A program made the translations under genes and the position numbers. Below are positions 1 through 63,257 of a DNA stretch of 64,000 bases, piece after piece (within the stretch, counting starts at the first letter, position 1; the number at the start of each line of letters is the position of its first letter). The notes beneath the pieces are model-generated. The model did no database searches. It was given only the letters and a program-made list of their open reading frames with translations, and had not been told where the DNA came from. The stretch lies in the NCBI GenBank assembly GCA_964596735.1, contig CAZQVF010000005.1:13328-77327 (forward strand), in the 5' to 3' direction. This stretch comes from an uncultured Gammaproteobacteria bacterium. GTDB taxonomy: Bacteria; Patescibacteriota; Patescibacteriia; UBA2591; UBA6264.

Positions 1-66
1 AGCCAATCAACTTTGTTTTTTCCTTATTTTATGTTATACTTTTATAAGGAAAAAATAATTATTTAT

Positions 67-145
67 AAGAACCTTCTCGCTCTGCTCGCAGAACCTTGAA
101 ATTAAATTATTATTGTATAAAAATTAAGGTAATTTGATTATAAAA
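67..145 (+). promoter_or_regulatory. conserved intergenic promoter-like repeat element, copy 1, upstream of aspS
   Basis: AAGAACCT..CAGAACC TTGAAA(96-101)-14nt-TGTATAAA(114-121)...ATTATAAA. The same architecture recurs at 12460-12530, 15164-15214, 17257-17410 (x2), 42866-42919 and 59041-59118. Confidence 0.5.
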
Positions 146-148
146 CTT

Positions 149-1549
149 ATGAAACGAATTCAAAGCGAAGAAACAATTAATAAAATTAAAAAAGAAGTTA
201 AGCTTTGTGGTTGGGTAAACAGCCGTCGCAACATGGGTAAAATTGTTTTTATTGATTTAAGAGACCGTTCTGGCTTAGTCCAGATTGTTTTTATTCCCCA
301 AGAACTTGATCAAGAATCGCAAAAAGCAGTTAAAGAAACTCGACCTGAATTTGTTGTTGAGGTTAAAGGGGTTGTCCGTCTAAGACCGAAAAATCAAATT
401 AACAAAGATTTAATAAGCGGAAAAATAGAAATCTTAGCTAAAAAATTATCTATTTTAAATCAAGCTAAGACTACGCCATTTGAAATTGACAATGAAACCC
501 TTAAAGCCAACGAAGAACTTCGTCTAAAATACCGTTATTTAGACTTGCGGCATGAACGCATGAAAAATAATCTAATTCTTCGTCATCAAGTTATCAAATT
601 TATCCGTGATTATTTAGATAAAGAAAAATTTTTAGAAATTGAAACACCAATTCTAACTAAAGGCACACCAGAAGGTGCTAGAGAATTTATTATTCCTTCT
701 CGACTTTATCCTGGAAAATTCTATGTTCTCCCTCAAGCCCCTCAACAATTTAAACAACTTTTAATGGTTGCTGGTGTTGAAAAATATTTCCAAATTGCTC
801 GTTGTTTTCGTGATGAAGACACGCGGGGTGATCGTCAACCAGAATTTACTCAATTAGACATTGAAATGAGTTTTGTTGATCAGCATGAGATAATGGATTT
901 AATTGAAAAATTAACTATTGCCCTGATTAAAAAGATAGCTCCAAAAAAGAGAATTTTAACTAAACCCTTTCCCAGGATTACTTATGAACAGGCAATAAAA
1001 AAATATAAAACTGATAAGCCTGATCTAAGAAAGAATAAAAAAGATCCTAATGAACTAGCCTTTTGCTTTATCACAGACTTTCCTCTTTTTCAGTATTCAA
1101 AAACAGAAAAGAAAAATATCTCTGTACACCACCCTTTTACTGCCCCTCAAAAAAAAGATATCCCTATTTTAAGCAAAAAACCCCTAAAAGTATTAGCCCA
1201 GCAATATGATTTTGTTTGTAATGGTTTTGAGTTAGGAGGAGGTTCAATTAGAATTCACCAAAGAGAAATCCAGGAAGAAATTTTTAAAATTCTAAAAATT
1301 AATGAACAAGAAACAGAAAGGCGCTTTGGACACCTCCTTAAAGCTTTTGAATATGGAGCCCCTCCTCATGGCGGCATTGCTCTTGGCTTAGACAGAATAA
1401 TTATGATCCTTGCCAATGAGCCTAATATTCGCGAAGTTATCCCTTTTGCTAAAACAGCTGACGCCAAAGACTTAATGATGGGAGCACCAAGTGAAATTCC
1501 AGAAGAACAATTAAAACAAGCTCATATTGAAATCAAAAAGAAAAAATGA
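149..1549 (+). CDS. aspS: aspartyl-tRNA synthetase (short form, probably non-discriminating)
   Basis: ORF 134..1549. ATG at 149 gives MKRIQ..., matching the AspRS N-terminus. Class II motifs FRDEDTRGDRQPEFTQLDIEMSF, GGGSIRIH, GAPPHGGIALGLDR. Confidence 0.9.
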   Translation: MKRIQSEETINKIKKEVKLCGWVNSRRNMGKIVFIDLRDRSGLVQIVFIPQELDQESQKAVKETRPEFVVEVKGVVRLRPKNQINKDLISGKIEILAKKLSILNQAKTTPFEIDNETLKANEELRLKYRYLDLRHERMKNNLILRHQVIKFIRDYLDKEKFLEIETPILTKGTPEGAREFIIPSRLYPGKFYVLPQAPQQFKQLLMVAGVEKYFQIARCFRDEDTRGDRQPEFTQLDIEMSFVDQHEIMDLIEKLTIALIKKIAPKKRILTKPFPRITYEQAIKKYKTDKPDLRKNKKDPNELAFCFITDFPLFQYSKTEKKNISVHHPFTAPQKKDIPILSKKPLKVLAQQYDFVCNGFELGGGSIRIHQREIQEEIFKILKINEQETERRFGHLLKAFEYGAPPHGGIALGLDRIIMILANEPNIREVIPFAKTADAKDLMMGAPSEIPEEQLKQAHIEIKKKK

Positions 1550-3585: not shown

Positions 3586-3613
3586 TTGTTTTTCTTTTAA
3601 TCTCTGGTATAAT
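3586..3613 (+). promoter_or_regulatory. sigma70-like promoter for the 5'-3' exonuclease gene (TTGTTT-N16-TATAAT); -10 ends 6 nt before the ATG
   Basis: TTGTTT 3586-3591, TATAAT 3608-3613, ATG at 3620. No Shine-Dalgarno sequence. Confidence 0.4.
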
Positions 3614-3619
3614 AAAAAC

Positions 3620-4549
3620 ATGAAAAAAAATCCAAAACTTATTCTTATTGATGCCCAGGCCGTACTTCATCGCGCTTGGCACGCTTTACCTCAACTAACT
3701 GATTCTCAAGGCAGGACAACCAATGCTGTTTATGGTTTTACAGCTCTTTTATTAAAACTTATTAATGAACAAAAACCTGATTATCTGGCAATTGCTTTTG
3801 ATACTAAGGCTCCTACTTTTCGTCATGAAAAATATGAGGCGTACAAGGCAGGAAGAGAAAAACAACCTCAGAATTTTTATGATCAAATCGACTTTACCAA
3901 GGACATTATTAAACCATTTGATATTCCTGTTTTTGAAAAAGACGGTTTTGAGGCCGATGACCTAATTGGAGCAATTGTGAGAGCACAGAAAAAAAATATC
4001 CCCAATCTTGAATGTTTAATTGTTACTGGTGATTTGGATTTGTGTCAATTAATTGACACAAAAACCTCAGTTTATTTTCTTAGACATGGAATTTCCCAAA
4101 TAAAGATCTATGACCAAAAAGCTGTTAAGGAACGCTTTGATTTGTCGCCTCAACAATTAATTGATTTTAAAGCCTTGAGTGGGGATCCTTCAGATAATAT
4201 TAAGGGTGTTCCTGGTATTGGCCCAAAAACAGCTTTGAACTTAATTAAAAAATTCAAAAACATAGAGAAACTTTATCAACACCTGGAAGGATGTGTCAAA
4301 ACAAAGAAAAGGTGTTTAATTAAAGAATCATTAATGCACCTTCTTTTAAAAAACAAAAAACAAGTTTTTTTGGACAAAGAATTAGTAACTATTGTACAAA
4401 AAATTCCTGGATTAAATCTAAGAAAGCTAAAATGTTTAAAAGCTTTTGATCTAGAAAAAATTGCTCATATCTTCCAGGGATTTGGATTTAAAAGTTTAAT
4501 TAAAAGATTGGAAAAAAATGGTTTAGGCCAGCAAAATAAGCTTTTTTAA
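3620..4549 (+). CDS. standalone 5'-3' exonuclease (FEN / Pol I N-terminal domain homolog)
   Basis: LILIDAQAVLHRAWHALP...GFTALLLKLINEQKPDYLAIAFD... plus H3TH region GDPSDNIKGVPGIGPKTA. No polymerase domain follows. Confidence 0.85.
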   Translation: MKKNPKLILIDAQAVLHRAWHALPQLTDSQGRTTNAVYGFTALLLKLINEQKPDYLAIAFDTKAPTFRHEKYEAYKAGREKQPQNFYDQIDFTKDIIKPFDIPVFEKDGFEADDLIGAIVRAQKKNIPNLECLIVTGDLDLCQLIDTKTSVYFLRHGISQIKIYDQKAVKERFDLSPQQLIDFKALSGDPSDNIKGVPGIGPKTALNLIKKFKNIEKLYQHLEGCVKTKKRCLIKESLMHLLLKNKKQVFLDKELVTIVQKIPGLNLRKLKCLKAFDLEKIAHIFQGFGFKSLIKRLEKNGLGQQNKLF

Positions 4550-12459: not shown

Positions 12460-12530
12460 CCCTATAATTAAATTACATTAATTTATATATAATAATTTAA
12501 TTTCAAGGTTCTGGTAAAGTCAGGTTCTTA
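12460..12530 (-). promoter_or_regulatory. conserved promoter-like repeat element (minus orientation) upstream of rpmH-rnpA-yidD-yidC
   Basis: Reverse complement reads AAGAACCTGactttacCAGAACCTTGAAATTAAATTATTATATATAAATTAATGTAATTTAATTATA. Confidence 0.5.
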
Positions 12531-12565
12531 TTTTAACACAAAAAGCACTAAACTACAAATACTAT

Positions 12566-15163: not shown

Positions 15164-15214
15164 TTTATAATTAAAATATTTTTTAATTTCAAGGTTCTGC
15201 GAAACAGGTTCTTA
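15164..15214 (-). promoter_or_regulatory. short copy of the conserved promoter-like element abutting the rbfA start
   Basis: Reverse complement reads AAGAACCTGtttcgCAGAACCTTGAAATTAAAAAATATTTTAATTATAAAaATG. Confidence 0.45.
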
Positions 15215-16997: not shown

Positions 16998-17231
16998 TTA
17001 TTTAATATTTAATTTTTCCTTAAACTTTGGGACATCAAATCCCATAATCATTTCCCCGTCGATTTCTGTTACGGGTACGGCCATCTGCCCTGTTTTTTTA
17101 ATAAAATCATCAACCAGATCCTGATGTTGACTAAGATCAACCTCTTCAAACTCGATTTTATTCTCATTTAAAAAATCTTTGACATGGTGGCAATAAAGAC
17201 ATGATGGTGATGTATAAACAATTATTTTCAT
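16998..17231 (-). CDS. glutaredoxin-like protein (NrdH/Grx family)
   Basis: 77 aa; CLYC active site in a thioredoxin fold (IIVYTSPSCLYCHHVKDFL). Confidence 0.75.
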   Translation of the reverse strand: MKIIVYTSPSCLYCHHVKDFLNENKIEFEEVDLSQHQDLVDDFIKKTGQMAVPVTEIDGEMIMGFDVPKFKEKLNIK

Positions 17232-17256
17232 ATATTCTTAGTTAATTGGTTATTTA

Positions 17257-17334
17257 CTGTTAGTATAAGAACCTGCTTCGCAGAACCTTGAAATTAAATT
17301 CTATTATATATAAATTAAGGTAATTTAATTATAA
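17257..17334 (+). repeat. conserved promoter-like element, copy 2 (tandem with copy 3), facing the 3' end of the DGR RT gene
   Basis: AAGAACCTGcttcgCAGAACCTTGAAATTAAATTCTATTATATATAAATTAAGGTAATTTAATTATAA, near-identical to the aspS copy. Confidence 0.5.
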
Positions 17335-17410
17335 GAACCTGCTTCGCAGAACCTACCTGCCGGCAGGCAGGCCTTGAAATTAAATTCTATTGTATAAATA
17401 ATAATGTATT
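17333..17410 (+). repeat. conserved promoter-like element, copy 3, carrying a 20-nt GC-rich palindromic insertion
   Basis: ...CAGAACC[tacCTGCCGGCAGGcaggcc]TTGAAATTAAATTCTATTGTATAAA...ATTATAAA. The perfect 12-bp palindrome is at 17346-17357. Confidence 0.5.
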
Positions 17411-17464
17411 TTAATTATAAAGATTAGAAAAAGCTCGTCAAGTTATCTTATTTTGTAATAATAT

Positions 17465-18442
17465 TTATTCTACTAAACCTACTTTCTTTCTAAATTTATA
17501 CGTATTTCCGTGAATCAATAGTCCTTGATAAGAAATAACTGTCTGTCGTTTTGGATAATTCTTTAATCTTCTAATTATCTTTCGCTTTGTGGTTGTTCGA
17601 ATCTGTCGATAGCATGGAAAATGTATCCAGCCCAAAAAATCTAAACCCGAAGCATAAGTTCTAATACAAACCTTGTGTTGATGAAGTGTCAATTTAAGTT
17701 CTTTTTGTAAAAATTCAGTGATTCTTAACAATAAACCATTGAGATACTCTTTATTGTCCGATAAAATAACGAAATCGTCGCCATATCTAATATAATATTT
17801 CACTCGCAATTCCTGTTTTATATACATATCAAATTCGTGCATATAAACATTAACGAAAAGTTGGGAAGTGAGGTTGCCAAGGGGCAGACCTATCCCCAAA
17901 CGGCTGGAATAAAAACTAAAAACTACCCTTTCAATCAACCGAATAATTTGAGAATCGTTAATGTGTCTCTTTAATATTTTAATAAGGATTTGCTGATCAA
18001 TGTTAGCAAAAAATTTCTGAATATCGCATTTTAGAATATAACAAGTTTGAGAATTATTTTTTGATACCTTCTGGGCAAAATATCTGAATCTGTTCAAAGC
18101 GCGATGCACTCCCTTGTTTTCTCTACACGAATATACATCATAAATAAACTTTCTATCAAAATAAGGACACAGCTCCTTATAAATGAGATGATGTAATAAC
18201 CGATCACGCACCGTAGCTTTGTGAATATTTCTCGGCTTGGGGTCAGAAATATTAAAAGCCGAATATGGTCCGTGAATATAAGTAAAATTAACCAGAGACT
18301 TATAAAGATCTATTAAATTATCGGCCAGCTTTATTTGAAAAATCATCACATCTTTTTTATGTCTTTTACCACACAAAAAACGCTCCCAAGTCGCTAAGAG
18401 ATTTTCTATCTTAATAATATCAATATATTTAACTTTAAACAT
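17465..18442 (-). CDS. DGR reverse transcriptase
   Basis: RT motifs: IENLLATWERFLCGKRHKKDV N-terminus, LPLGNLTSQLFVNVYM (DGR-specific SQ motif), YIRYGDDFVIL (YxDD). ORF track starts at 18511; start at MFKVKY (18442) abuts the divergent avd ATG (CATATG). Confidence 0.9.
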   Translation of the reverse strand: MFKVKYIDIIKIENLLATWERFLCGKRHKKDVMIFQIKLADNLIDLYKSLVNFTYIHGPYSAFNISDPKPRNIHKATVRDRLLHHLIYKELCPYFDRKFIYDVYSCRENKGVHRALNRFRYFAQKVSKNNSQTCYILKCDIQKFFANIDQQILIKILKRHINDSQIIRLIERVVFSFYSSRLGIGLPLGNLTSQLFVNVYMHEFDMYIKQELRVKYYIRYGDDFVILSDNKEYLNGLLLRITEFLQKELKLTLHQHKVCIRTYASGLDFLGWIHFPCYRQIRTTTKRKIIRRLKNYPKRQTVISYQGLLIHGNTYKFRKKVGLVE

Positions 18443-18820
18443 ATGACTACAATATCTGCGCGAGTACCATTGGTGCTTGTTAGAACAAAAAGGGCTTATC
18501 AAATTTGGCACAAAAATTTAGTCAATCTTAATCGACTTGATCGCTATACTATTGGTGCTAAAATCGATGAATATTTTCTATCTTTATTGGAATTAATTTT
18601 TAAGGCCTGTTTTGCTTACGATAAATTTGAAAAACTCTCAATGGTATCACAAGCGATTGGTAAAAACGATTTATTAAAATTCTTTTTACAGATTGGTTGG
18701 GAACAAAAAACCATTAACCATAAAAATTATGGTCTTCTAATACTTTTACTTGATGAAGTTGGTCGAATGCTGGGTGGCTGGAAAAAAAATATACAAGAAA
18801 AAACTCCCGCTAGTAAGTAG
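18443..18820 (+). CDS. avd: Avd-like accessory variability determinant (four-helix-bundle / IVS family), divergent from RT
   Basis: 125 aa, basic. C-terminus LLDEVGRMLGGWKKN resembles the Bordetella phage Avd C-terminus (AEVGRILGSWI), with the helical pattern of the 23S-IVS family. Confidence 0.6.
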   Translation: MTTISARVPLVLVRTKRAYQIWHKNLVNLNRLDRYTIGAKIDEYFLSLLELIFKACFAYDKFEKLSMVSQAIGKNDLLKFFLQIGWEQKTINHKNYGLLILLLDEVGRMLGGWKKNIQEKTPASK

Positions 18821-18840
18821 CAGGAGAAAAAATTAAATAA

Positions 18841-18960
18841 GTCACAGAAGCAGAGCAGGCAGTCGTTATCATCCCAAGCGTTCTCAAAGTTGCCGAGGTT
18901 GAAATTAAAGTCATCATCCGAGTTGCGGTTGACATTCGGCACGCGGTAGTTGCCGTCAGA
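18841..18960 (-). repeat. DGR template repeat (TR)
   Basis: Minus-strand sense translates ...SDGNYRVPNVNRNSDDDFNFNLGNFENAWDDNDCLLCFCD, rich in AAC/AAT codons. Not part of a real gene. The GC-rich end CGACTGCCTGCTCTGCTTCTG is shared with the VR (IMH-like), with one non-A mismatch. Confidence 0.85.
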
Positions 18961-19194
18961 CAATGTACAGCCCGCCACCTTTTTCACTAAGGGTAACGCC
19001 AGTCGCCCTCTGTATTTTATTCTGAGCCAAAATGCTCAATAGCACGCTGCACCGACTGATTTAATTTTTTCATAAAAGGTTGCACTCATTTACTAAGCAT
19101 GCCCAGTAAATTCCTGGCAAACTCCCTTTACGAGAATTCGATGATATAAAGCCATGGCCACATATCCAATCTATTATCCAAAAATATTATACAG

Positions 19195-19238
19195 AAAAAA
19201 TACATAAAAGAAAAGGGTCCTTACATTGGTAAGAACCC
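19195..19238 (-). terminator. hairpin + U-tract downstream of the DGR target gene (terminator; possible DGR homing hairpin)
   Basis: Minus sense GGGUUCUUAC-CAAU-GUAAGGACCC forms a 10-bp stem with one G-U, followed by UUUUCUUUUAUGUAUUUUUU. Confidence 0.55.
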
Positions 19239-19289
19239 AAAGGGTCAAAAAATCCAAAGAACAGGACTAAGAAACCAAGTGCCTAAGCA

Positions 19290-19997
19290 CTAATCGCAGT
19301 CGCAGAAGCAGAGCAGGCAGTCGCTATCATCCCAAGCGTCCTCAAAGGGGCCGAGGAAGAAAATAAAGTCACCAACCGAGTAGCGGTCGACAGACGGCAC
19401 GCGGTAGCTGCCGTCAGAATCGATCCAGAGAGCCTCTTTCTCATCAAACGAGACAGACCAACGGCTCTTTGGCAACTTGTTTTTGGCAAGTTCATAGACC
19501 AGTGAAGCGCCTTGAGCGCCGGCTAAAACAGCTTTCTGAGAATACAGGAAATTTAAACAGTCTTCCGAAGTCACAGTTTCTGTGATATTAAAAACCTTTA
19601 CCTTGAACTTTCTGCCAGGCACGAGCTTTGTTGTCGCTTTGTTAAAGTGCTTATCAGTGATGTCGGAATTGTAGTAATTAAATTCCGAGCCATGCGCTGC
19701 TGCAAAGTCAGTCAAGCGCGTAGCATGGTCGTAACCCTTAGGCACAACAATGTTAAACGCATTGGCCAATTTGAAGCGCGGGTCAGGCATAAACGGTGAA
19801 AGAGCTTGCTGACGTTGTTTCTGTGTCAGATTTAAAAAACATTCATATTCTGGCAAACTCATTTGCCCTTTCTTGATCTTCTGATTGCAATCCATATGCA
19901 GACCAGCCAATTTGGCCGCTTCTGCGCCGATAGATGTCTTATCCATCATTTTCTCCTTTGATACCAAGAGTTTAATAATTGACCCCATGCCAATCAT
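19290..19997 (-). CDS. DGR target protein with C-terminal variable region
   Basis: C-terminal 40 aa (GSYRVPSVDRYSVGDFIFFLGPFEDAWDDSDCLLCFCD) are encoded by the VR. N-terminal portion has no recognised domain; start codon uncertain (several in-frame Met). Confidence 0.75.
   Translation of the reverse strand: MIGMGSIIKLLVSKEKMMDKTSIGAEAAKLAGLHMDCNQKIKKGQMSLPEYECFLNLTQKQRQQALSPFMPDPRFKLANAFNIVVPKGYDHATRLTDFAAAHGSEFNYYNSDITDKHFNKATTKLVPGRKFKVKVFNITETVTSEDCLNFLYSQKAVLAGAQGASLVYELAKNKLPKSRWSVSFDEKEALWIDSDGSYRVPSVDRYSVGDFIFFLGPFEDAWDDSDCLLCFCDCD
19299..19418 (-). repeat. DGR variable repeat (VR) at the 3' end of the target gene
   Basis: Differences from the TR occur only where the TR has A on the sense strand (AAC to AGC, GAC, TAC, TTC, CCC; GAT to GTT, GGT). 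Confidence 0.85.
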
Positions 19998-20095
19998 TTT
20001 CTCAGTATTGATAATATTATGTCATATTTTAGCCTTTTTGTCAACACTCCTATTCCAAAAGACTTAAAATTTATATTAATCTAAAATAAAAACAC

Positions 20096-20125
20096 CGCCG
20101 AGGAGAATCGAACTCCTGAGACGGA
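20096..20125 (-). pseudogene. tRNA 3'-half fragment (canonical T-arm + acceptor 3' strand, no 5' half)
   Basis: Minus sense AGGAG-TTCGATT-CTCCT then CGGCGGTG; no matching 5' acceptor strand within 80 nt. The 14-nt core CCGAGGAGAAT(C/T)GA is directly repeated at 20181-20194. Confidence 0.4.
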
Positions 20126-20201
20126 TTTGCCTTTAGCGGAAAACCTGGCGTCCTACAATGCTTAATAAATTAAAATGGCCCCGAGGAGAATTGAGTGAAA
20201 A

Positions 20202-20890
20202 TTATTTTAATCCACTTTGTAATTTTAACGCGTCAATCCATCCTTTAATTCGAAAAGCTATCTTACGACCATGTACACGTAAATCAAGTGTGCCATATGG
20301 CAAAGAATTGATTGGACGTTTTCTGTTGCTCGCTTTGCTTATTTGTTTAAAAATGCGAAAACGACTTTTAGGAATATTAGTTACTCTAGCCCAAAAATTA
20401 ATGGCAGATTGCTCGCTAATATTAGCATGTATTCTAACACATACTTTTAATTTCTCTTCAGGGACTTTAATAATTTCTCGTAAAAAGCGAAGAAACAACG
20501 CAATCATATAAGGATCAGCATTAACAAAATCAACTACATACCCTTTGTTTTTTTGAGCCTCAATTTTATATCCCTCTGCCCAATAAAGAGCATTTGCAAC
20601 TAATAATAACTCATATTTTGACAACGAATGAATTTCATTAAAAGTCTCCTTCTTTATTCTCTGATTTTCAATCCAAATAGCACGTGTCCGTTGCCGATTG
20701 TTTTCAAATAACCCATGTTCTCGAGCAATTCTCGTTTTTTTTTCTAAAAGCTTTTTTGCTGACTTTGTTAGTTTTAAGTCTCTAAACCAAACGCTAAGCG
20801 AGCCCTTGGAAACACTTAAAGTACGAGCTATTTCATTGTAACTTTTACCCTTTAACCGCAACCTGAGCGCTTTTTGATATTGTGGATGCA
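20202..20890 (-). CDS. hypothetical HTH-domain protein with LAGLIDADG-like motif (possible homing-endonuclease-like protein)
   Basis: HTH segment KGKSYNEIARTLSVSKGSLSVWF; motif LLLVANALYWAEGYKIEAQK...VDFVNADPYMIALFLRFL resembles degenerate LAGLIDADG. ORF track start (20954) overlaps tRNA-Glu, so ATG at 20890 (MHPQYQ) is used. Confidence 0.35.
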
Positions 20891-20908
20891 TAATAATTAA
20901 ATATATAA

Positions 20909-29740: not shown

Positions 29741-29754
29741 AATAATTTAATTTT

Positions 29755-42865: not shown

Positions 42866-42919
42866 GTTTATAATTAAAATGTTTTTTAATTTCAAGGTTC
42901 TGGCGAAGCCAGGTTCTTA
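42866..42919 (-). promoter_or_regulatory. short copy of the conserved promoter-like element abutting the AI-2E transporter start
   Basis: Reverse complement reads AAGAACCTGGcttcgCCAGAACCTTGAAATTAAAAAACATTTTAATTATAAActATG. Confidence 0.45.
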
Positions 42920-46720: not shown

Positions 46721-46737
46721 TTATTTATAAGCAAAGC

Positions 46738-46765
46738 TTGAAATTAAAAAACATTTTAACTATAA
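46738..46765 (+). repeat. degenerate partial copy of the conserved intergenic element at the tgt/recO junction
   Basis: TTGAAATTAAAAAACATTTTAActATAAA matches the short version of the element but lacks the AAGAACCTG..CAGAACC half. Confidence 0.3.
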
Positions 46766-47479
46766 ATGCCAGCTGAAAAACAGCTTAATCACTTTCTCGG
46801 CTATTTGTAAATCCTTTTGGACAAATTTTTGTTGAATTAAAGAAGCAAAATCTTGGTAAAGCAATTTTCGTAAAACCATTAAAGCTTTTATATTAATTCT
46901 GACTTGTTGATTGTTAGCGTTGTCATCTAAATTATGTTTTAAGCAAACAATTCCCCCTTTTTCTAAATTAAAAACAATCTCTTCTTCTTGGGGTGTTTGA
47001 TAACAAATTAGACAGGTTTTTATCTCTGGACAATATCCTGAGAAAGCGAGGAATTTGATTAAAAAAGCATGATTAATAATCCTAATTTTATTTAAAGGAA
47101 TTTGATTAATTATTTTTAAAAATTTTAATATCAGAAGGAAAATTTTTTTATCAGACTGGGGTTTAATTAATTGATTAATTCGTTTTAGTAAAGTATTGGT
47201 TTGAATAATCTTTTGTTCTTCTGTAATAATATTCTTAAAACGTTCCTTAACCTCACCGCCAATTAAATGAGTATGACTTTTCCCTGGAGCAACAACTAAA
47301 TCTAATAAAGCAAAAGGCTCCGAAATAAGTGGAGCCAGCTTAGAATTGATTTTACGAGCCCCGCGAACAAAGACTTCTAATTTGCCAGATTCTTGACTAT
47401 AAAAAGATATAACTTGATCATTCTCCCGCCAATTCTCTCTGGCCAAAATTATTCCCAGTAAATGTTGGGTTCTAGACAT
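46760..47479 (-). CDS. recO: DNA repair protein RecO
   Basis: N-terminal OB fold (GIILARENWRENDQVISFYSQESGKLEVFVRGARK) and C-terminal Cys4 zinc motif (CLIC...CLKH). Confidence 0.75.
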   Translation of the reverse strand: MSRTQHLLGIILARENWRENDQVISFYSQESGKLEVFVRGARKINSKLAPLISEPFALLDLVVAPGKSHTHLIGGEVKERFKNIITEEQKIIQTNTLLKRINQLIKPQSDKKIFLLILKFLKIINQIPLNKIRIINHAFLIKFLAFSGYCPEIKTCLICYQTPQEEEIVFNLEKGGIVCLKHNLDDNANNQQVRINIKALMVLRKLLYQDFASLIQQKFVQKDLQIAEKVIKLFFSWHL

Positions 47480-54100: not shown

Positions 54101-54556
54101 ATGAGTTCAATTACTGCTAATAAAAAAGCCTATCACGACTATGAAATTCTGCAATCTCTTGAAGCAGGGATTGTCCTTTCTGGACCTGAGGTTAAATCTA
54201 TTAAAGGGGGGCGGATTAACCTTTCTGGCGGTTATGTTAACATTGATTCAAAGGGAGCTGTTTGGTTAATAAATGTTCACGTTGACCCTTATGCCCCTGC
54301 CGCTCAAGTACAAAAAGACTATAACCCAACCCAAAGCAGAAAATTACTTTTAAATAAAAAAGAAATTGCCTCTTTAATGGGCAAAATCAAAACCAAGGGG
54401 TTAACGATCATTCCTCTTAAAGTTTATACTAAACACCGTATTATTAAAATTGAAATCGGCTTAGTTAGAGGGAAGAAGAAATGGGACAAAAGAGAAGATA
54501 TTAAAAAACGAGAAACAAAAAGAAAAATAGAACAAAGCCTCAAAAATTATTCTTAA
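54101..54556 (+). CDS. smpB: SsrA-binding protein
   Basis: NKKAYHDYEILQSLEAGIVLSGPEVKSIK...GLTIIPLKVY SmpB signature. Its partner tmRNA is at 62909-63257. Confidence 0.9.
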   Translation: MSSITANKKAYHDYEILQSLEAGIVLSGPEVKSIKGGRINLSGGYVNIDSKGAVWLINVHVDPYAPAAQVQKDYNPTQSRKLLLNKKEIASLMGKIKTKGLTIIPLKVYTKHRIIKIEIGLVRGKKKWDKREDIKKRETKRKIEQSLKNYS

Positions 54557-59040: not shown

Positions 59041-59118
59041 AAGAACCTGCTCACTTCGTTCGCAGAACCTTGAAATTAAATATTTATTGTATAAAATATT
59101 AATGTACTTCAATTATAA
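59041..59118 (+). promoter_or_regulatory. conserved promoter-like repeat element upstream of the M50 protease gene
   Basis: AAGAACCTGctcacttcgttcgCAGAACCTTGAAATTAAATATTTATTGTATAAAatattaatgtacttcaATTATAAT. Confidence 0.5.
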
Positions 59119-62908: not shown

Positions 62909-63257
62909 GGGGGTGAAAGGAATCGACAGGAAGCCAGTGTTAAAGACAGCTTTTTGTCCTGAGAAAGACACAAAAATTCTCAAAAAACATAATTGCCAAC
63001 GAAAAGTTAGCATTTGCTGTAGCTTAAACAAGCTAAAGCCGTTAAGACTAAAGACTCCTCCTATTTAGTCATTGACGTCAATCTAGAAGGATCGACATTT
63101 TGGTTGCCTGGATCAAAATGTTTAAAAAATCAGGATAGAGTTTAAGAATTTTGTCTTGTTTCAATTCTAAAACTCAAATAGAACAAACAAGACTATAAAA
63201 GTAGACATTTTTAACAGCACTTTCTAGACGGGAGTTCGATTCTCCCCACCTCCACCA
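62909..63257 (+). ncRNA. ssrA: tmRNA (ssrA), one-piece; tag peptide ANEKLAFAVA
   Basis: 5' GGGGGTGAAAGGAATCGAC pairs with 3' GGGAGTTCGATTCTCCCCACCTCCACCA (G3-U70 Ala identity, encoded CCA). Tag ORF gcc aac gaa aag tta gca ttt gct gta gct taa at 62995-63027. Confidence 0.85.

What the first reader, a model, noticed from the sequence alone, without database searches (positions are those of the whole stretch)
67..145. Conserved ~50-80-bp intergenic element family (at least 8 copies, both orientations) with paired GAACCT repeats and promoter-like boxes
Copies at 67-145(+), 12460-12530(-), 15164-15214(-), 17257-17334(+), 17333-17410(+), 42866-42919(-), 59041-59118(+), plus a degenerate copy at 46738-46765(+). 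They share AAGAACCTG-(5-15 nt)-CAGAACC-TTGAAATTAAA-...-TGTATAAA-...-ATTATAAA. Long copies have two TATA-like boxes; short copies (rbfA, AI-2E transporter) collapse to TTGAAA-N17-TATAAA directly abutting the ATG. Most copies lie upstream of, and co-oriented with, a gene (aspS, rpmH operon, rbfA, AI-2E transporter, M50 protease). This suggests a strong shared promoter with an upstream operator-like direct repeat (GAACCT x2 at variable spacing). Three copies instead face the 3' ends of convergent genes (RT, recO), so promoter function alone does not explain all copies. The reverse complement of the 3' box reads TTTATAAT, a perfect -10, so the element could act bidirectionally.
Basis: seen in the sequence. 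Interest (0 to 1): 0.6.

Follow-up and report, generated by a model that had tools for sequence, protein, structure and literature searches.

The report
Mobile hairpin repeat family in Patescibacteria
The repeated 50-80-bp intergenic element is real, but it behaves like a small mobile hairpin repeat spread through many ultra-small (Patescibacteria) genomes that tends to sit at promoter -10 boxes and stop codons, not like one shared promoter with an operator.

Summary
There are eight copies in the window, none expected by chance. The same element occurs in at least 23 species-level Patescibacteria genomes and more than 100 metagenome contigs, often in head-to-tail arrays.

- **Orientation.** Across 98 classified arrays, orientation relative to flanking genes is random (39 same, 36 opposite).
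- **The GAACC "direct repeats".** They are the two conserved flanks of an imperfect hairpin (H1). Its inner stem covaries, and it folds well only on the reverse-complement strand (G.U pairs, tandem G.A, R-N-A triloop).
- **The AT-rich part.** It is a second inverted repeat (H2) around a loop of 4-38 nt.
- **Turnover.** Relatives 91-97% identical show clean filled and empty sites bounded by 3-5 nt of (T)ATAA. H1 differs completely between orthologous copies.
- **Forward-strand promoter geometry fails.** TTGAAA lies 13-15 nt from the first TATA box. In the short copies the expected start site falls inside the ORF.
- **Reverse-strand promoter.** The reverse complement of the 3' end is a consensus TATAAT. 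In 22 of 51 copies facing a gene that way, the flank supplies TGn or a -35, against 1 of 35 otherwise.

Best reading: a new REP/BOX/Correia-like non-autonomous mobile repeat that targets AT-rich ...AT/TAA sites and preserves or donates -10 boxes. The mobilising enzyme is unknown.

The parts
67..144 (+). Copy c1, long form, in the 5' leader of aspS. H1 hairpin module 67-97. H2 arms 99-107 and 132-139, with the loop at 108-131.
   Evidence: aspS confirmed.
13..40 (+). Canonical extended -10 promoter in the flank upstream of c1 (TTGTTT-16-TGT-TATACT; -10 at 35-40). It would transcribe through c1 into aspS.
   Evidence: Read from the sequence. Inference from the sigma-70 consensus.
12461..12529 (-). 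Copy c2, long form, between rny (RNase Y) and rpmH. H1 12505-12529. H2 arms 12495-12503 and 12466-12473.
   Evidence: Absent from relative L061. Present in L172 with H1 deleted.
12530..12558 (-). Flank promoter abutting the 5' end of c2: TTGTAG-17-TGT-TAAAAT, with the -10 ending exactly at the element boundary.
   Evidence: distance 0 class.
15164..15213 (-). Copy c3, short form, inserted between the TAA stop of tsaC/Sua5 and the ATG of rbfA.
   Evidence: Empty site in L061 (CGTTTTTAAAGATG). Filled in L172.
17267..17335 (+). Copy c4, long form, first unit of a head-to-tail pair.
   Evidence: Only its 3' part is present in L061.
17333..17421 (+). Copy c5, long form, carrying an extra GC-rich palindrome (17356-17374, CCTGCCGGCAGG) after H1.
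   Evidence: The orthologous copy in L061 has a different H1, while the rest of the element is identical.
17414..17441 (-). Canonical promoter TTGACG-16-TATAAT on the minus strand. The -10 is the reverse complement of the 3' end of c5 and the -35 lies in the flank. It reads through c5 and c4 towards the glutaredoxin gene (16998-17231, -).
   Evidence: 11/12 match. -35 conserved in L061. Glutaredoxin confirmed.
42867..42918 (-). Copy c6, short form, between the M16 peptidase gene and the AI-2E transporter gene, 2 nt before the ATG.
   Evidence: Empty site in L132 (AAAAAATAA|ACTATGG). L019 has this copy plus an extra long copy.
46729..46766 (+). Copy c7, short form of the AAGCAAAGCTT subfamily (mini-hairpin in place of H1), between the recO stop and the tgt start.
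   Evidence: The subfamily recurs.
59041..59118 (+). Copy c8, long form, between tRNA-Pro (-) and the M50 peptidase gene. H1 59041-59071.
   Evidence: Present in the same place in L229.
29742..29752 (+). Remnant (ATAATTTAATT, the 3' arm of H2) at a site where relative L132 carries a full copy abutting the ATG of the next gene.

Best explanation
The element is a non-autonomous, modular, interspersed palindromic repeat. It is a small mobile element of the REP/BIME, BOX or Correia kind, maintained across a large clade of Patescibacteria.

**Structure**
- *H1 module.* A GC-rich imperfect hairpin: AAG-AAC-[covarying stem]-[apex TC-GC-TTC-GC-TC]-[stem']-AAC-CTT. It folds properly only on the reverse-complement strand.
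- *H2 module.* An AT-rich inverted repeat, AATTAAAN...N'TTTAATT, around a loop of 4-38 nt. It ends in ...AATTATAA.

**Behaviour**
- New copies appear at AT-rich sites of the form ...(T)AT|AA or TAA. These sites are mostly TAA stop codons and promoter -10 hexamers. There are no terminal inverted repeats, and only 3-5 nt of terminal identity.
- Because the element itself ends in the target-like sequence, it forms head-to-tail arrays.
- H1 is a hot spot for replacement, deletion and nested insertion of further GC palindromes.

**Effect on the host (inferred)**
- In one orientation the element's terminal TATAAT serves as the -10 of a canonical promoter whose -35 or TGn lies in the flank. Transcription would start inside the element, and the stable H1 hairpin would become part of the 5' leader.
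- In the other orientation the element is simply co-transcribed inside leaders and operons. It can abut stop and start codons without harm.

**Shown:** family, structure, strand asymmetry, presence/absence polymorphism, random orientation, promoter features in the flank.

**Inferred:** active transposition (as opposed to recombination or slippage), a single-stranded DNA or RNA intermediate, the transcription start, and the trans-acting enzyme, which was not found.
For: **Spread.** The exact 18-mer is found in more than 100 stretches of species-representative genomes, mostly Patescibacteria/Parcubacteria MAGs from at least 23 assemblies. A further 120 metagenome contigs carry it. Many are tandem arrays with a period of about 66-86 nt.

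**Gain and loss among close relatives**
- c3 is empty in L061 and filled in L172.
- c6 is empty in L132, while L019 has an extra copy.
- L153 is filled and L166 empty, with flanks 95-97% identical.
- L132 has a full copy where the window has only a remnant (29742-29752).
- L180 has a copy where the window has TGGTATAAT-N6-ATG.
- In three clean pairs the empty site equals the filled site minus the element, with 3-5 nt of (T)ATAA shared.

**H1 turnover.** Orthologous copies keep an identical AT-rich module but carry unrelated H1 sequences. L172 lacks H1 altogether.

**Orientation.** 39 same versus 36 opposite.

**H1 structure**
- 123 distinct modules. The inner stem is 72-85% Watson-Crick at its first three pairs, with several pair types.
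- There are 99 T.C/C.T mismatches (G.A on the other strand) against 2 G.A.
- The reverse strand is more stable in 111/123 modules (-6.7 versus -3.5 kcal/mol).
- 97.2% of cells are paired, 6 of 11 pairs show changes on both sides, and 0/500 shuffles reach this.

**H2 structure.** The first free pair is TA 56, CG 24, AT 7. Watson-Crick pairing is 67%, against 43% when shuffled (0/2000).

**Modularity.** H1 occurs alone 63 times, in arrays with other hairpin modules, and with nested GC palindromes in its loop.

**Promoter features at the boundaries**
- Reverse strand: 22/51 gene-facing copies versus 1/35.
- Forward strand: 14 copies have an extended -10 ending exactly at the 5' boundary.

**Conservation.** The AT-rich module is about 83% identical between genomes whose genes align at only 65-70%.

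**No prior description found.** No Rfam family matches. No paper in the library describes it.
Against: - No transposase, RAYT-like or other candidate enzyme was found. Genes next to the elements are housekeeping genes (ClpB, RecA, PNPase, EF-Tu, PilT/PilC, bactofilin). No full-length element with split ends was seen.
- There are no terminal inverted repeats and no fixed-length target duplication, so the insertion chemistry is unknown.
- Empty sites could in principle arise by precise deletion between short TAA repeats. Arrays could arise by slippage.
- Copies recur at the same intergenic spacers in different genera (recA upstream in 3 species, pilT-pilC, pnp). Within-genome identity (86%) is about the same as between-genome identity (83%). 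This would also fit long-term purifying selection on a host function.
- Single-sequence folding energies are modest (z from 0 to -3.6).
- Gene calls used for the orientation classes were crude ORF calls.
Confidence: 0.6

Rival explanations
1. First reader's model. The element is a strong shared sigma-70 promoter (TTGAAA / TATA boxes) on the forward strand, with an upstream operator made of two GAACCT direct repeats. It would control a coherent gene set.
For: TTGAAA-N17-TATAAA in the short copies. Five of 8 window copies are co-oriented with the next gene. Arrays are enriched in divergent over convergent spacers. The sequence is strongly conserved across genomes.
Against: - Orientation is random over 75 arrays between co-directional genes.
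- In long copies, which make up about 90% of the family, TTGAAA is 13-15 nt from the first TATA box, and the distance to the conserved 3' block varies with loop length.
- In short copies the -10 ends 1-2 nt from the ATG.
- aspS and rpmH have canonical promoters in the flank.
- No TGn or -35 enrichment is seen when the element's TATAAG is taken as a -10.
- Copies inserted between stop and start codons are absent from close relatives.
- GAACC spacing ranges from 7 to more than 60 nt, with a covarying hairpin in between.
- The neighbouring genes show no common theme.
Confidence: 0.08
2. The element is a host-selected RNA element read from the reverse-complement strand. It would be a portable unit of -10, start site and leader. 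The resulting RNA is either a roughly 60-nt small RNA ending at the H1 hairpin (followed by UUCUUAUA), or a structured 5' leader that stabilises or attenuates the downstream mRNA. H1's conserved GUU/GUU and tandem-GA motifs would be bound by a conserved protein.
For: - The strand asymmetry of H1 favours the reverse strand.
- The conserved 3' block reads TATAAT-TAAAtT-AC on that strand, which is a -10, a 6-nt discriminator and a purine start.
- Flank -35/TGn features occur specifically when that strand faces a gene.
- A reverse-strand promoter plus element lies upstream of recA in 3 species.
- H1 on the reverse strand is flagged as terminator-like at 17350-17338 and 17284-17272.
- The consensus is kept across genera.
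Against: - About 40% of arrays (39 of 98 classified) lie antisense to both neighbours and have no flank promoter features (1/35).
- The 5' arm of H2 would lie upstream of the predicted start, so H2 covariation is not explained by this RNA.
- The tail after H1 is only moderately U-rich compared with this genome's clear terminators.
- Triloops of the GCGAAGC type are known (from my own knowledge) as unusually stable in DNA, not RNA.
- Presence/absence turnover between near-identical genomes argues against an essential role at each site.
Confidence: 0.2
3. The element is a DNA-level host signal rather than a selfish element. Candidates are an uptake signal for natural transformation, or a binding or cruciform site for a nucleoid, recombination or replication protein.
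For: Independence of orientation, intergenic location and conservation of an exact 18-mer across many species. Hairpins best formed by one DNA strand.
Against: - Density is only about 1 per 8-9 kb (8 copies in 74 kb). That is far below known uptake sequences (my own knowledge).
- The conserved unit is 50-80 bp with hypervariable parts.
- Tandem arrays and nested insertions are typical of repeats that propagate.
- No orientation polarity along a region of constant GC skew.
Confidence: 0.05

Closest known systems
REP / BIME / REPIN elements of Proteobacteria (mobilised by RAYT HUH transposases)
   Same: - Short (about 30 nt) imperfect palindromes in extragenic DNA, found in both orientations.
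- Combined with other motifs into mosaic units and clusters.
- One strand folds better than the other.
- A conserved consensus persists over long evolutionary times alongside within-genome diversity.
- No terminal inverted repeats.
   Different: - No GTAG-type tetranucleotide at the hairpin foot.
- The units are direct head-to-tail, not inverted REP doublets.
- The second module is AT-rich and carries a -10 box.
- No RAYT gene was identified.
- The host phylum is new.
Correia elements (CREE/NEMIS) of Neisseria
   Same: - Roughly 100-bp multicopy intergenic repeats that insert at TA-rich sites.
- They create or carry -10 boxes at their ends.
- They are co-transcribed with neighbouring genes as hairpin-forming leaders.
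   Different: - Correia elements have 26-bp terminal inverted repeats and a TA duplication. This family has neither.
- This family is modular, with a hypervariable hairpin.
BOX elements of Streptococcus pneumoniae (also ERIC, MIRU)
   Same: - Modular build (boxA, a variable number of boxB, boxC), comparable to one to three H1-type hairpins plus the AT-rich module.
- Intergenic, structured, and able to alter expression of neighbouring genes.
- As with MIRU, copies sit inside operons and overlap the upstream stop codon and the downstream start codon.
   Different: No sequence similarity. Smaller unit. No small ORF through the element. Strong link to -10 boxes.
IS200/IS605-derived palindrome-associated elements (PATE)
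   Same: Subterminal hairpins, no terminal inverted repeats, insertion next to a short specific sequence without a fixed duplication, and dependence on a folded single strand.
   Different: - The two hairpins are unrelated to each other.
- No orientation bias relative to gene or replication direction.
- No tnpA or tnpB partner was seen.
Mobile promoters ('promoter propagation in prokaryotes')
   Same: Homologous promoter-like sequence upstream of unrelated genes in the same genome and in related genomes.
   Different: The promoter activity here is inferred only.

Membership tests
   Long copies: TTGAAA lies 13-15 nt from TATAAA/TATATA, and the -10 candidates end in A. Short copies have a spacing of 17, but the -10 is TATAAA/TATAAG.
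   In c3 and c6 the -10 ends 1-2 nt before the ATG. In L046 and L083 the element abuts position +1 of tRNA-Leu-like sequence.
Sigma-70 promoter on the reverse-complement strand | A consensus -10 with TGn and/or a -35 at 16-18 nt, facing a gene | tested here: met
   TATAAT in 54/73 solo copies. TGn or a -35 match of at least 5/6 in 22/51 gene-facing copies, against 1/35 antisense copies and about 3-7% at control TATAAT sites. Window example at 17441-17414. This holds for a subset only. Transcription itself could not be tested.
Operator made of direct repeats | Fixed spacing of the repeats, and conservation as duplex sequence rather than as pairing | tested here: not met
   Spacing ranges from 7 to more than 60 nt. 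The sequence between the repeats is a hairpin with compensatory changes.
Classical MITE (derived from a DDE transposon) | Terminal inverted repeats | tested here: not met
   The 5' end AAGAACCTG... and the reverse complement of the 3' end TTATAATTAAAT... share no similarity.
Classical MITE (derived from a DDE transposon) | Target-site duplication of fixed length | tested here: inconclusive
   Filled/empty pairs share TAA, ATAA or TATAA (3-5 nt). This is equally compatible with insertion next to ...AT/TAA by an element that ends in the same letters.
Classical MITE (derived from a DDE transposon) | Small, multicopy, non-coding, with insertion polymorphism between relatives | tested here: met
REP/REPIN-RAYT | Extragenic imperfect palindrome of 20-40 nt that folds on one strand | tested here: met
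   H1 module of 23-45 nt, with strand asymmetry.
REP/REPIN-RAYT | Conserved GTAG-like tetranucleotide at the foot, and inverted REP doublets | tested here: not met
   The foot is AAGAAC/AACCTT. Units are arranged head-to-tail.
REP/REPIN-RAYT | A cognate single-copy RAYT (Y1 HUH) gene flanked by the repeats | not testable with these tools
   Only about 1.5 Mb of fragments from many genomes was available. None of the 240 ORFs next to elements formed a transposase-like cluster.
IS200/IS605-type PATE | Strand-specific insertion giving an orientation bias relative to replication | tested here: not met
   39 versus 36 relative to co-directional genes. 5(+) and 3(-) in a window whose GC skew is negative over most of its length. 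Gene direction was used as a proxy for replication direction.
Integron attC site | R''/R' core sites RYYYAAC ... GTTRRRY, in arrays next to intI | tested here: not met
   The sequences do not fit (AAGAAC; GGTTCTT on the other strand). The copies are dispersed.
Intrinsic terminator | GC-rich stem followed directly by a U-tract, at gene ends | tested here: inconclusive
   H1 on the reverse strand passes the simple scan at two copies. However, the tail is GUUCUUAUA, arrays are depleted in convergent spacers (5 versus about 9 expected), and half of the copies lie on the wrong strand.
TIGR or CRISPR arrays | Short repeats alternating with variable spacers (36-nt TIGR units), next to tas or cas genes | tested here: not met
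   The period is 66-86 nt, units within an array are near-identical, and the copies are dispersed. The TIGR definition is taken from PMC12045711.
Any Rfam family | A covariance-model score at or above the gathering threshold | tested here: not met
   Only tmRNA and tRNAs pass in the window. The best sub-threshold hit at 17200-17480 scores 22 bits against a threshold of 49.

The most novel reading that the evidence does not exclude
The family could be a long-lived mobile hairpin system, in the manner of REPIN-RAYT, specific to streamlined Patescibacteria. It would be propagated by a vertically inherited single-copy enzyme, not yet identified, that recognises the strand-specific H1 hairpin (GUU/GUU base, tandem G.A, R-N-A triloop). 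It would insert at the melted -10 region of promoters and at TAA stops. The element would be built so that promoters survive insertion in either orientation, which in effect makes it a portable -10/start-site/5'-hairpin cassette that rewires transcription in genomes with almost no regulators.
Probability: 0.2. Interest if true: 0.7.

Novelty: new member of a known kind. Interest (0 to 1): 0.5.

Why it matters
Patescibacteria are regarded as extremely streamlined, with tiny intergenic regions and few mobile elements. This repeat family has about one copy per 8-9 kb. It is more conserved than the neighbouring genes across genera, turns over between near-identical genomes, and sits at -10 boxes and stop/start junctions. 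That shows their intergenic DNA is dynamic.

The family also offers three practical uses:
- a marker for strain-level variation;
- a cause of assembly breaks in metagenome-assembled genomes;
- a defined sequence for testing how promoters and 5' leaders work in an uncultivated phylum.

If a cognate enzyme exists, it would be a new hairpin-recognising mobilisation system.

Tried and rejected
1. **Shine-Dalgarno reading of TAAGGT in the 3' block.** The GG variant is no more frequent in copies that abut an ATG (33%) than in others (46-50%).
2. **Insertion into -10 boxes with TATAAG as the disrupted -10.** No TGn or -35 enrichment at that register. A different register, with the -10 ending exactly at the boundary, does occur in 14 copies.
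3. **Phage origin.** The two IMG/VR hits to the 18-mer are chance matches inside coding sequence.
4. **A known RNA family.** None.
5. **TIGR arrays.** The unit structure does not fit.
6. **An autonomous parent with split ends.** None in the held sequence.
7. **An associated transposase among neighbouring ORFs.** Only housekeeping clusters were found.
8. **A wobble-pair test for the strand of H2.** T.G and C.A cases are about equal, so it is uninformative.
9. **Pairing of ACCTT with AAGGT (pseudoknot or antiterminator).** Not kept in the AATGT and AAAGT variants.
10. **A link between the elements and the neighbouring reverse transcriptase.** The RT belongs to a diversity-generating retroelement that is absent from L061, while copy c5 and its flank are present there.
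11. **Literature.** Searches for the sequence, and for repeats, MITE or REP in Patescibacteria, found nothing relevant.

Full report
**1. Observation**

The window is 32-36% G+C and lies in a 315-kb metagenome contig, JGI 3300009311 Ga0117906_1000004. The 17-mer AGAACCTTGAAATTAAA occurs six times, against 0.00 expected in shuffles. A profile built from copies in other genomes finds seven window copies (E = 1e-15 to 4e-7) and no others. Ten further kilobases upstream of the window hold no additional copy. The eighth copy (46729-46766) belongs to a recurrent subfamily in which AAGC-AAA-GCTT replaces the first hairpin.

**2. Distribution**

Most carried the full element, and these came from at least 23 Patescibacteria/Parcubacteria assemblies. 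The remainder were isolated chance matches inside genes of unrelated bacteria.

A metagenome scan anchored only on the AT-rich part gave 120 more contigs. Tandem head-to-tail arrays of 2-5 units are common. IMG/VR viral contigs gave only two chance hits inside coding sequence.

The element's AT-rich module is about 83% identical between genomes whose genes align at only 65-70% nucleotide identity. Part of that figure is fixed by the search pattern. The free part is about 71% identical.

**3. Anatomy**

The element has two modules.

*H1.* The layout is AAG-AAC-[stem]-[apex]-[stem']-AAC-CTT. The "GAACC direct repeats" are the two sides of the base of this hairpin.
- Among 123 distinct modules, the first inner-stem pairs are 72-85% Watson-Crick, with several pair types: CTGC/GCAG, CTGGC/GCCAG, CTGAC/GTCAG, CCT/AGG, CTT/AAG, CTC/GAG, ATGC/GCAT.
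- The common apex TC-GC-TTC-GC-TC gives pyrimidine mismatches on the forward strand. On the reverse strand it gives tandem G.A pairs and a GAA (R-N-A) triloop: 99 T.C-type mismatches against 2 G.A-type.
- The invariant AAC/AAC becomes G.U, U.U, U.G on the reverse strand.
- The reverse strand is more stable in 111 of 123 modules.
- On an alignment of 36 modules of one length class, 97.2% of cells pair and 6 of 11 pairs change on both sides. No shuffle out of 500 reaches this. The outer pairs are fixed by the way the modules were collected.

*H2.* This is AATTAAA-N...N'-TTTAATT around a loop of 4-38 nt. The first free pair covaries: TA 56, CG 24, AT 7. Watson-Crick pairing is 67%, against 43% when shuffled (0 of 2000).

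*3' block.* TAAnGTAaTTTAATTATAa is the most conserved stretch.

*Other points.* Single-copy folding energies are modest. H1 also occurs alone, in arrays with other small hairpins that share the same apex, and with further GC-rich palindromes nested in its loop.

**4. Turnover**

Relatives 91-97% identical in the flanks show several differences.

| Site | Filled | Empty or different |
|---|---|---|
| c3 (tsaC stop / rbfA ATG) | window, L172 | L061 (CGTTTTTAAAGATG) |
| c6 | window; L019 has it plus an extra long copy | L132 (AAAAAATAA\|ACTATGG) |
| L153 site | L153 | L166 (AAATATAA\|AAAAA) |
| window 29742-29752 | L132 (full copy) | window (only the 3' arm remains) |
| tRNA-Cys to 5'-3' exonuclease gene | L180 | window (TGGTATAAT-N6-ATG, a leaderless-type promoter) |
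| c2 (upstream of rpmH) | window | L061 (a canonical TTGTGT-16-TGTTATAAT promoter instead); L172 (copy lacking H1) |

In the clean pairs the empty site equals the filled site minus the element, with 3-5 nt of (T)ATAA shared. Units in arrays share the same junction, AATTAT|AAGAACC. Orthologous copies have unrelated H1 sequences beside identical AT-rich modules. About a quarter of arrays start with an extra partial 3' block.

**5. Position and orientation**

The 98 classified arrays, taken from the held loci that carry elements (crude ORF calls), fall as follows:
- 39 between co-directional genes in the same orientation;
- 36 between co-directional genes in the opposite orientation;
- 18 in divergent spacers;
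- 5 in convergent spacers.

The background of ORF pairs is 696 tandem, 72 divergent and 81 convergent. There is therefore no co-orientation (p = 0.82). There is an excess in spacers that contain promoters (p = 0.007).

Same-orientation copies often fill the whole spacer. The upstream TAA stop lies in TAAGAAC, and the ATG follows or overlaps AATTAT.

**6. Promoter readings**

*Forward strand.* The spacing from TTGAAA to a TATA box is wrong in long copies. In short copies the start site would lie inside the ORF. aspS and rpmH have extended -10 promoters in the flank. The SD-like AAGG is not enriched where an ATG abuts the element.

*Reverse strand.*
- The 3' end reads TATAAT (54/73 solo copies), followed by TAAAtT and AC.
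- A TGn or a -35 match of at least 5/6 at 16-18 nt is present in 16/34 opposite-orientation arrays and 6/17 divergent arrays, but in only 1/35 same-orientation arrays. Control TATAAT sites show 6.9% TGn and 3.2% -35.
- Examples: window 17441-17414, TTGACG-16-TATAAT, towards the glutaredoxin gene; recA in three species, including TTGACA-17-TATAAT.
- In the forward orientation, 14 copies have an extended -10 ending exactly at the 5' boundary.

I read this as a preference for ...AT/TAA targets, of which -10 hexamers and TAA stops are the commonest in these spacers. The element's ends then keep a usable -10 in place. This last step is inference.

**7. What it is not**

- No Rfam family.
- Not a TIGR or CRISPR array.
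- No attC core.
- No terminal inverted repeats.
- No orientation bias of the IS200/IS605 kind.
- No autonomous parent.
- No transposase among neighbouring genes.
- No description found in the literature library.

**8. Verdict**

The promoter/operator interpretation is partly supported: promoter association holds, mainly on the other strand and with help from the flank, while a shared forward promoter with a direct-repeat operator does not.

The best explanation is a new family of non-autonomous, modular, hairpin-based interspersed repeats in Patescibacteria, analogous to REP/BIME, BOX and Correia elements. The mobilising mechanism is unknown (confidence 0.6). The main rival is a host-selected reverse-strand leader or small RNA (0.2).

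Noticed in passing
window 17465-19997 (-): A diversity-generating retroelement. The RT gene is at 17465-18511 (Pfam RVT_1). The template repeat is at 18840-18960 and the variable repeat at 19298-19418, at the 3' end of a 235-aa ORF with no Pfam match. Every difference between the two repeats falls at an A of the template copy. The whole segment of about 3.5 kb (17420-20896) is absent from the close relative L061.
   Followed up: partly
window 3590-3622 (+): TGGTATAAT followed by 6 nt and then the ATG of the 5'-3' exonuclease gene. This is the geometry of a leaderless mRNA, so the organism probably uses leaderless starts. Most genes near the elements also lack a Shine-Dalgarno sequence.
   Followed up: no
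L046 3380-4200 (-), and L083 2900-3040 (+): The element abuts a roughly 25-nt 5' fragment of tRNA-Leu, which is followed by a full tRNA-Leu. In L046 an ORF of about 200 aa separates the two. From its sequence it looks like a LAGLIDADG homing endonuclease, but this was not tested.
   Followed up: no
L118, L156, L158, L161, L214, L222, L011, L079, L091 (loop of the H1 hairpin): Families of further GC-rich palindromes, such as CCCGCT(N)AGCGGG and GCCAGGCACCGTCTGGCGCCTGGC, are nested exactly in the apical loop of H1. They are apparently flanked by a duplicated TTCG or TCG. This looks like a second tier of tiny hairpin insertions.
   Followed up: partly
L035, L062, L078, L119, L137, L163, L185; also L032, L043, L058, L063, L135: Other recurrent modules follow H1 in place of the AT-rich module. 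One is GATTCGCTTTGAATAATATATATCTCTTGAAAT. Another is a hairpin such as GCTATTCGCTACGCTCATAGT, which has the same apex as H1. They form arrays with a period of about 50 nt.
   Followed up: no
L094 about 720-950 (-): Downstream of an element lies a series of direct repeats (TTATTTATAATTGAATTACCT...) with spacers of about 30 nt. This may be a CRISPR-like array. Not examined.
   Followed up: no
window 62909-63257 (+): A tmRNA gene with tag peptide ANEKLAFAVA. smpB lies about 8 kb upstream (54101-54556).
   Followed up: no
L226 9700-9900 (just upstream of window position 1): A tRNA (anticodon region CTGTTAATC, probably tRNA-Asn) and a clear terminator (AAGTCCGCCCTAAAAGGCGGATTTTTT) precede the aspS promoter and copy c1.
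   Followed up: no
many loci (for example L002, L009, L017, L031, L044, L073, L076, L157, L178): Contigs frequently end inside or next to an element. The repeat family probably breaks short-read assemblies of these genomes.
   Followed up: no
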